Below are positions 4,300 to 5,348 of a DNA stretch of 64,000 nt, in pieces; positions within the stretch are counted from its first letter, which is position 1; each line of letters starts with the position of its first letter. The position numbers and the translations under genes are program-made. Origin of the DNA: Eledone cirrhosa (taxonomy: Eukaryota); NCBI GenBank assembly GCA_964016885.1, contig OZ024743.1, positions 150,722,001-150,786,000 on the forward strand, in the 5' to 3' direction. Below the pieces are notes generated by a model that was given only the letters and a program-made list of their open reading frames with translations, was not told the origin of the DNA and did no database searches.

Positions 4300-5348
4300 A
4301 TATTGTTATACTTTGGGAGGGTCATGTTGCCAATAAGAAACACACGCACCAGTTGTTTTCACTTCAATTTATTATAATAAATTTATAATAAATTTATGAA
4401 TTTATAAATTTCTGGTTGGTTGGTTGGTTCCACAACCAGATAGTTGTTTATATATAGTCATAGTTCTTTCGTCACACACTCTGTGACCTCTTGTAAAGAC
4501 CCTCATGTATAGATAAGAAATGTATAACCTGTAAAATAAGCCCCCATATTAACTGTAAAACTAGAAATGTAGTGTATAGCATAAGATGTACTGAAGGACA
4601 ATGTAGAGACAAAAATATAGTGTACATAGGTGAGACAGCCCGTAGTGTAGGGGAACGGATAAATGAACACTGGCGAGACCTTCAAGATAATAAAGAATCA
4701 TCTGTACTCTACTAACATGCTAAAATAGAACACAAGGGTAAATTAGAGAACATAGAAATAAAAATAGAATCTACACACAGAAAAGACGCAATGTTTAGAC
4801 AAATTACAGAGGCAATAAACATAAAAGAATTACAACCAAAATTAAATAGAAAATATGAGTGGAACAGCAACATCACAACTTACAATTAAGGACAAAATGA
4901 AAACACACACACACATAGAACAAACAACCAACCAGTAACATGTAAATAAACAAATAAATAAATGAACATAAACACACACAGACACCCGGATGTGATGCAT
5001 GCGCAGACTGAGCACACAACACACACACAGAAACAAAATGGCGTAGGACAGAACAAAGGAGAGGCACAGAAACAAAGAAAGGAATCCCCAGTCACTGAAG
5101 AGATCACAGAGTGTGTGACGAAAGAACTATGACTATATATAAACAACTATCTGGTTGTGGAACCAACCAACCAACCAGAAATTTATAAATTTATAAATTT
5201 ATTATAAATTTATTATAATAAATTGAAGTGAAAGCAACTGGTGCGTGTGTTTCTTATTGGCAACATGACCCTCCCAAAGTATAACAATATCGGTTTCAGC
5301 ACACGATTTCAGATAAAAAATCTTGCTAAACAGATTCAGAAACGAAAT
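4300..5348 (+). mobile_element. 5'-truncated PLE family 1 copy with inverted pLTR at its 5' end
   Basis: 4495-5290 nearly identical to 1297-2081, with a new in-frame TAA in the GIY-YIG. 4300-4492 is the reverse complement of the pLTR. 5291-5348 is a tail. Confidence 0.92.
5090..5134 (+). ncRNA. Minimal hammerhead ribozyme (PLE family 1)
   Basis: agtca-CTGAAGAG-atcac-agagtgt-gtgac-GAAA-gaac-TA-tgact. Confidence 0.75.

What the first reader, a model, noticed from the sequence alone, without database searches (positions are those of the whole stretch)
4300..5348. Reciprocal tail rule: one arm stops at a fixed internal TA site and the other carries the downstream tail, suggesting twin priming on (TA)n
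Seen in family 1: at 4300-5348 the forward arm has a ~57-bp tail and the inverted arm stops at ..gtataacaatat. At 51520-51775 it is reversed: the forward arm stops at that same site and the tail appears inverted upstream. Family A stops at ..ttcctat in three loci (3495, 54818, 56264) with the tail on the opposite arm. The same asymmetry occurs at 5899-6310, 11645-12048, 12803/17372, 47412-47940 versus 7431-8185, and 49140-49596. Known: PLE insertions often have inverted pLTRs and tails. Inference: because (TA)n is self-complementary, both cut target strands can prime cDNA at two UA-rich sites on the RNA, and the two cDNAs are then joined head-to-head.
Basis: partly seen in the sequence, partly recalled or inferred. 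Interest (0 to 1): 0.75.

Follow-up and report, generated by a model that had tools for sequence, protein, structure and literature searches.

The report
Penelope insertions with one-sided tails
These mirror-image pieces are cut-short copies of Penelope-like jumping genes sitting in TA repeats, whose two arms almost always end at two different fixed points, likely because both cut DNA strands start copying one RNA at two neighbouring sites; the layout is already described, and this genome adds a clean count of the rule.

Summary
Confirmed and general, but largely known. 4300-5348 is a truncated Penelope-like element (RT, CX4CXXC linker, C-terminal GIY-YIG; Neptune/Nematis type by motif) in (TA)n. 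Its family ends at two sites about 60 nt apart just inside the ORF start: S (5290) and L (5350). Exact genome counts: S+TA 11,791, L+TA 12,710, L read-through 429. Head-to-head arms pair S with L in 45 of 49 coordinate pairs (24 expected), 6 of 6 in an unbiased 664 kb, and 49 of 50 non-defining pairs in 16 other family queries. Exceptions exist (6346-7409 is S+S). Either arm can reach further inward, sister arms share a subfamily haplotype, the sites carry 3-5 nt of TA homology, and junctions show short microhomology or filler. Best reading: twin target-primed reverse transcription on one RNA (0.65). One-sided tails are published (PMC3846280, PMC8557442), as are two RT start sites bounding the tail with both strands extended (PMC11167929). 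I found no explicit twin-priming model for these elements in five searches. This scan noted the same architecture and reading repeatedly on other DNA of this genome.

The parts
4285..4303 (.). (TA)n array, left flank; its last 4 bases are shared with the S end of the inverted arm
4300..4492 (-). Family 1 inverted arm, outer end at site S; 190 of 193 bases identical to 5098-5290
4493..4494 (.). 2-nt filler at the head-to-head junction
4495..4889 (+). Forward arm: 3' end of the ORF (GIY-YIG region), 5'-truncated
   Evidence: homologous to 1296-1690, whose ORF hits Pfam GIY-YIG at E 2.5e-4, just under the curated cut-off
4890..5290 (+). Forward arm: 3' UTR / pseudo-LTR up to site S; ATG of the next tandem unit's ORF at 5265
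4997..5043 (+). Candidate promoter and RNA 5' end: hot spot of inner arm ends 250-281 nt upstream of S, between motifs that resemble NRF1 and YY1 sites (names recalled; inferred)
5090..5134 (+). Hammerhead-like core (CUGAAGA, stem II, GAAA); stems in the predicted fold, no Rfam hit for this family
5291..5350 (+). Tail from S to L, in frame with the ORF start; last 4 bases shared with the TA array
5347..5900 (.). (TA)n array, right flank
1..2084 (+). Family 1 long arm ending at S; its inverted partner ends at L about 4,080 bp before the window start
51524..51776 (+). Older family 1 insertion: long arm ends at S (51776), tail-only inverted arm 51524-51569
2156..3494 (.). Family A two-arm insertion, 72-nt tail on the left arm
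54690..54818 (.). Family A relative, 28 unpaired bases on the left arm, S on the right
56078..56268 (.). Family A two-arm insertion, tail on the left arm
5901..6316 (.). Family B two-arm insertion, 40-45 nt tail on the right
6346..7409 (.). Exception: about 620-nt tandem unit with a hammerhead-like motif, both outer ends at S; 8 other two-arm loci of this family are S+L
7431..8183 (.). Family C, long arm carries the tail
47414..47938 (.). Family C, reciprocal: tail on the short arm, long arm ends at S
11646..12048 (.). Family D, 100-nt tail; Hammerhead_1 match at 11958-12001 (E 0.0028, below gathering score)
12804..17372 (+). Family E, near full-length decayed RT-endonuclease element ending at S, short inverted arm with 92-nt tail
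   Evidence: RT and endonuclease motifs read by eye; no Pfam hit
49138..49596 (.). Family F, 82-87 nt tail on the left arm

Best explanation
The structure is a truncated Penelope-like retroelement insertion in (TA)n whose two head-to-head arms end at two fixed sites, S and L, and it was likely made by twin target-primed reverse transcription on one RNA. Shown: the two ends, their pairing, either arm reaching further inward, a shared haplotype, short TA homology at the sites. Inferred: the protein, probably as a dimer, binds its RNA just downstream of the start codon and nicks both strands of (TA)n; one 3' end primes at L and the other at S, helped by 3-5 nt of pairing; two enzymes cannot hold the same site of one RNA, so the arms differ by the tail; each cDNA stops independently, often at RNA structure or at the RNA 5' end about 265 nt upstream of S; host end joining links the cDNA ends with short microhomology or filler; if one primer is not extended, a one-arm copy results.
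For: Counts: S+TA 11,791, L+TA 12,710, L read-through 429. Pairing: 45 of 49; 6 of 6 two-arm insertions in a contiguous 664 kb; of 100 S-anchored loci 70 S+L, 2 S+S, 1 ambiguous, 14 one-arm, 13 unresolved (my classification); of 52 distinct L-anchored loci 20 have an adjacent partner end in view, all S; 62 of 63 pairs in 16 other family queries, 49 of 50 without the defining loci. Against simple fold-back of an L-primed cDNA: the S arm reaches further inward in 40 of 70, the L arm in 18, equal within 15 nt in 12; in 14 of 70 the L arm does not reach S; one-arm copies end at S and at L. One template: median sister-arm distance 1.25% against about 5% to other copies, n=39; 22 of 29 concordant at common polymorphic sites against 12% for random pairs; 133 of 140 variants shared by both arms occur in other insertions against 33 of 74 one-arm variants, so later conversion is not the main cause. 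TA homology at 11 of 17 S sites. Junction overlap of 2 nt or more in 16 of 50 against 15% simulated, p 0.002; filler in 21 of 50 against 25%. In vitro precedent: PMC11167929.
Against: All evidence comes from fixed insertions in one assembly; no intermediate was seen. Exceptions: S+S at 6346-7409, L137, L161, L148 (family M query); L+L at L175 and two unfetched coordinate pairs. The 12 near-equal pairs (3.6 expected) also fit fold-back. No sign that the S-primed enzyme blocks the L-primed one: with both arms past S by 25 nt it is 21 against 17. A shared haplotype also follows if one source dominates at a time. Junction microhomology is short and only modestly enriched. Six of 17 S sites show under 3 nt of TA homology (some may be mis-registered), and PMC11167929 reports initiation without homology. 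Tails share no common hairpin (7 of 17 with z below -1.5; family 1 z +0.4). The hot-spot window was picked after seeing the data and no RNA data place the 5' end.
Confidence: 0.65

Rival explanations
1. One priming event at L (or self-priming on an antisense template), the cDNA folds back and copies itself, and the element's nuclease cuts or synthesis exits at S; later central deletions shorten either arm.
For: Explains S+L pairing and near-identical arms; 12 of 70 near-equal arms, several at an internal AT palindrome; S is AT-rich like the target. Self-priming is proposed in PMC3846280 and nuclease resolution of the tail in PMC8557442.
Against: Needs a secondary deletion in 40 of 70 cases where the S arm reaches further, including 14 where the L arm never reaches S; near-symmetric pairs persist undeleted (L166, L056, L117, L154); 14 of 100 S arms have only TA on the other side; both tail ends are RT start sites in vitro.
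Confidence: 0.2
2. Dual priming: two RNAs, each with its own enzyme, prime the two strands, and an asymmetric complex forces one to use S and the other L.
For: Explains overlapping arms without strand displacement and similar arm-length distributions (medians 211 and 168 nt); L130 has arms of 95% and 74% identity to the reference (not followed up). Named for L1 in PMC2837659.
Against: Independent loading predicts half same-end pairs, seen 4 of 49; arms share a haplotype far above random; inner ends of sister arms are correlated, rho 0.41.
Confidence: 0.12
3. Assembly artefact (long-read fold-back chimeras) or chance.
For: Long-read assemblies can hold false palindromes (own knowledge); I obtained no read-level check of the focal junction.
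Against: About 12,000 copies at each of two exact ends, family-specific offsets, arms that differ by a few mutations, mostly unique junctions.
Confidence: 0.01

Closest known systems
Complex insertions of endonuclease-bearing Penelope-like elements (PMC3846280, passages; PMC8557442, passages; PMC2377424, passages)
   Same: Partial-tandem pseudo-LTRs, adjacent inverted 5'-truncated copy, tail overlapping the first codons of the ORF and present at one end only, (TA)n targeting.
   Different: Published tails are 30-40 bp and called optional; here offsets run from 26 to 162 nt by family and S+L pairing is counted at over 90%. Those papers invoke self-priming or nuclease resolution.
PAc (Poseidon of Anolis) in vitro (PMC11167929; parts 1-2 of 4 read, main text whole)
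   Same: Two internal RT start sites that bound the tail, both target strands cut and extended, AT-rich target, predicted dimer, hammerhead in the pseudo-LTR.
   Different: PAc starts without homology to the cut DNA and both strands use both sites in bulk; the paper does not link this to inverted arms or one site per strand. Here sites carry 3-5 nt of TA homology and the element has the CX2-5CxxC linker that Penelope/Poseidon lacks.
L1 twin priming and dual priming (PMC2837659, passages)
   Same: Both target strands prime cDNA, giving an inversion with little junction microhomology.
   Different: L1 primes at the poly(A) tail plus a variable internal site and the pieces do not overlap; here both sites are fixed and internal and the arms copy the same RNA stretch.
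Neptune / Nematis clades (PMC8557442, passages)
   Same: C-terminal GIY-YIG with CCHH-type cysteines and histidines, CX4CXXC linker, DKS(G) motif (read by eye).
   Different: No phylogeny was run; the clade within this pair is not assigned.

Membership tests
EN+ Penelope-like element | Single ORF with RT and GIY-YIG endonuclease | tested here: met
   L102 863-aa frame: RVT_1 E 0.00097, window ORF GIY-YIG E 0.00025, both below curated cut-offs; YVDD and VVY..YIGET motifs in one frame
EN+ Penelope-like element | Partial tandem forming pseudo-LTRs | tested here: met
   Pseudo-LTR reading on into the next ORF in L174, L018, L027, L156; 429 exact read-through junctions
EN+ Penelope-like element | Inverted 5'-truncated copy with a tail at one end | tested here: met
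EN+ Penelope-like element | Hammerhead ribozyme in the pseudo-LTR | tested here: inconclusive
   Core motif and stems in the fold; no Rfam hit for family 1 in window 1-20000; family D hit below gathering score
EN+ Penelope-like element | RT groups with telomerase/PLE RTs in a tree | not tested
Neptune / Nematis | CX2-5CxxC linker before a C-terminal endonuclease with CCHH motif | tested here: met
   CIDKKCITC linker; two Cys inside the GIY-YIG core and HxxxxH after it; definition
Neptune / Nematis | Clade placement by RT phylogeny | not tested
   No tree built
Hydra clade | CCHH absent, CxCX5C linker, DKT motif | tested here: not met
   Family 1 has CCHH-type residues, CX4CXXC and DKS
Naiad / Chlamys | Endonuclease N-terminal to RT | tested here: not met
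   GIY-YIG is C-terminal
Twin priming (L1 type) | Both target strands prime cDNA on one RNA | not testable with these tools
   Inferred from pairing, arm lengths and haplotypes
Twin priming (L1 type) | Inverted and direct pieces do not overlap on the RNA | tested here: not met
   Arms overlap in most S+L pairs; only tail-only L arms (14 of 70) do not
Twin priming (L1 type) | Target site duplication | not testable with these tools
   Both flanks are (TA)n, so a duplication cannot be read

The most novel reading that the evidence does not exclude
Two-sided priming is the default Penelope reaction: a dimer loads one RNA at both ends of the tail, one site per target strand, so the tail is the spacer between two active sites; most events occur on the pseudo-LTR/ORF junction near the RNA 5' end, which yields the mass of short stubs, and short hammerhead-bearing tandem units use the same machinery.
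Probability: 0.45. Interest if true: 0.65.

Novelty: new member of a known kind. Interest (0 to 1): 0.4.

Why it matters
How Penelope-like elements make inverted repeats and tails is named as an open problem in PMC8557442, and the 2024 in vitro paper leaves the later steps unexplained. The pairing rule turns this into one strand-resolved experiment on a published system. It also gives annotators a simple way to set element ends and helps explain why TA microsatellites here collect stacked palindromes. The anatomy itself is not new.

Tried and rejected
First L-end patterns used the window's rare variant and gave 27 and 0 matches; redone with the common variant. Coordinate pairing with S read-through gave 36 of 41; its five exceptions resolved to two cases of separate neighbouring insertions, one S+L through a tandem, one unresolved and one true L+L. 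The first junction analysis was discarded for self-reference and under-extension and redone. Zero-offset hits of the de novo scan were mostly TA runs inside elements; of 15 intervals inspected only 6346-7409 was a true same-end pair, and four larger inverted duplications were not traced to their outer ends. Six of 69 pairs were dropped because a long TA array lay between the arms. A conserved tail hairpin bringing S and L together: not supported. A trailing enzyme stalled at S: not supported. RNA support for the 5' end: no RNA holder listed. Independent read support for the focal junction was not obtained and stays open. Rfam microRNA matches are hairpin or TA artefacts below gathering scores. 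Literature: five searches; 'Penelope' plus 'twin priming' gave 3 papers, none on these elements by listing; subscription papers cited for the tail were not seen; bioRxiv 10.64898/2026.07.22.740005 has no main-text match for tail or priming; no supplements were read, and those of PMC11167929 and PMC8557442 may bear on strand-by-site use and on whether this family is catalogued.

Full report
Observation. The focal insertion lies between two (TA)n arrays. Its left arm (4300-4492, minus) matches 5098-5290 at 190 of 193 bases, two filler bases follow, and the forward arm runs 4495-5350, 56-60 nt beyond the point where the left arm ends. I call the inner end S and the outer end L. At 51524-51776 an older copy has its long arm ending at S and 46 nt of tail inverted upstream, without a TA array on that side. 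The copy at 1-2084 ends at S and its inverted partner ends at L about 4 kb before the window.

Identity. Family 1 is a Penelope-like element of roughly 4 kb per unit. [quoted passage not shown] By the definitions in PMC8557442 (passages) this fits Neptune or Nematis, not Hydra, Naiad or Penelope/Poseidon; no tree was built. The start codon of the next tandem unit is at 5265, so S and L fall in the first 29 codons and the tail is coding sequence. A hammerhead-like core lies about 170-200 nt upstream of S without an Rfam hit. Earlier scan notes call the host likely an octopus; I did not test that.

Two ends. Exact patterns in the 3.0 Gb genome give 11,791 copies stopping at S before TA, 11,416 reading through S, 12,710 stopping at L before TA and 429 reading through L. 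In 1.55 Mb of fetched DNA, family A has 74 TA-abutting ends: 38 within 3 nt of L, 36 at S, none between; 15 other queries show the same two-peak pattern with offsets of 26-162 nt, one with an extra peak at a TA run inside its tail.

Pairing. From coordinates alone, 49 divergent neighbours within 6 kb in the first 42 Mb of C1 are 45 S+L, 3 L+L and 1 S+S, with 24.5 mixed pairs expected; the S+S is two separate insertions. I classed all 100 listed S ends by hand: 70 S+L (two look like duplicates; one is interrupted), 2 S+S, 1 ambiguous, 14 one-arm with TA on the far side, 13 unresolved. Of 52 distinct L-anchored loci with 1.5 kb flanks, 20 show an adjacent partner end, all S; of 14 further read-through loci, five are S+L and one (L175) is L+L. 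An unbiased contiguous 664 kb holds six two-arm family 1 insertions, all S+L (two with L ends 6 and 13 nt short), and one L-only copy. For other families, 62 of 63 pairs without an intervening long TA array are S+L, 49 of 50 after removing the 13 loci that defined the queries; six pairs were dropped. Those queries were chosen from asymmetric loci, a bias partly checked. The roughly 620-nt tandem unit at 6346-7409 has 8 other two-arm loci among 25 fetched matches, all S+L.

Mechanism. If one L-primed cDNA folded back, the L arm would always reach further inward. It does in 18 of 70; the S arm does in 40; 12 are equal within 15 nt (3.6 expected); in 14 the L arm is shorter than the tail. With both arms at least 25 nt past S the split is 21 to 17, so neither arm is favoured. 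Sister arms differ by a median 1.25% against about 5% from other copies (n=39), agree at common polymorphic sites in 22 of 29 cases against 12% for random pairs, and 133 of 140 variants that they share occur in other insertions, which points to one template lineage more than to later conversion. Eleven of 17 S sites carry 3 or more alternating T/A bases matching the target, against 12% by chance, and family 1 has ATAT at both sites. Of 50 central junctions, 16 overlap by 2-5 nt (15% in simulation, p 0.002) and 21 hold filler (25% in simulation, p 0.006), as expected of host end joining (own knowledge). Inner ends cluster 250-281 nt upstream of S (25 of 187, against 9 in the flanking 96 nt; window chosen after inspection), between motifs that I recall as NRF1- and YY1-like. 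The pseudo-LTR is the promoter in Drosophila Penelope (PMC2377424, passages), so this may be the RNA 5' end; untested. I commit to twin priming on one RNA (0.65), with fold-back plus resolution or deletion (0.2) and two RNAs in an asymmetric complex (0.12) as rivals.

What is known. PMC3846280 (passages) describes the tail on one of the inverted pseudo-LTRs, overlapping the first codons, and proposes self-priming. PMC8557442 (passages) says that the tail is often at one end only, ascribes it to nuclease resolution, notes (TA)n targeting and calls the mechanism open. PMC11167929 (main text) shows two RT start sites at the tail ends, both strands cut and extended, and a predicted dimer, but reports no homology at the start site and does not explain inverted arms. 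L1 twin and dual priming are described in PMC2837659 (passages). Five searches listed no paper applying twin priming to these elements; subscription papers and supplements were not seen. Eight earlier notes of this scan report the same architecture on other pieces of this genome, most with the same reading; I had recorded my reading before seeing them and count them as leads only.

Verdict. A real, well-counted pattern in a known class of element. The increment is the quantified S+L rule across many families, the single-template evidence and the TA homology, which together define one experiment. New member of a known kind; interest 0.4.

Noticed in passing
window 6346-7409; L248-L272: About 620-nt tandem unit with a hammerhead-like motif and no ORF of note; only 28 exact matches genome-wide; follows the S+L rule at 8 other loci, which suggests mobilisation by Penelope-type enzymes (retrozyme-like).
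   Followed up: partly
window 1-12300: About ten unrelated elements stacked end to end, each separated by a TA array; every insertion leaves new targets on both sides.
   Followed up: no
window 3555-4284: Element between TA arrays with a 120-bp direct repeat about 610 bp apart (3555-3674, 4165-4284); possibly another short tandem unit.
   Followed up: no
window 8187-9455, 32882-33768: Complex nested palindromes of one family containing internal TA runs.
   Followed up: no
window 21800-25570 (minus): Decayed gag/protease/RT-like frames with similar stretches at 22050-22290 and 25238-25509; looks like an LTR retrotransposon remnant (read by eye).
   Followed up: no
window 7735-7927, 10299-10483, 14342-14524, 16012-16191, 26313-26506, 27475-27873, 48351-48718; 41085-41433, 44797-45137, 49616-49956, 55172-55517: Two dispersed SINE-like families of about 185 and 340 bp; one copy interrupts the family E ORF.
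   Followed up: no
L130 (G000:C1:26477980-26484180): S+L insertion whose arms are 95% and 74% identical to the reference; a candidate two-template insertion or an arm with a deletion.
   Followed up: no
window 4997-5043: Inner arm ends cluster between motifs resembling NRF1 and YY1 sites (names recalled); candidate transcription start.
   Followed up: partly
window 56917-57760 (minus), 9454-10286: Fragments of another RT/GIY-YIG-like family with long truncated copies; ends not analysed.
   Followed up: no
window 40288-40546: (TAC)n-type trinucleotide array of about 260 bp.
   Followed up: no
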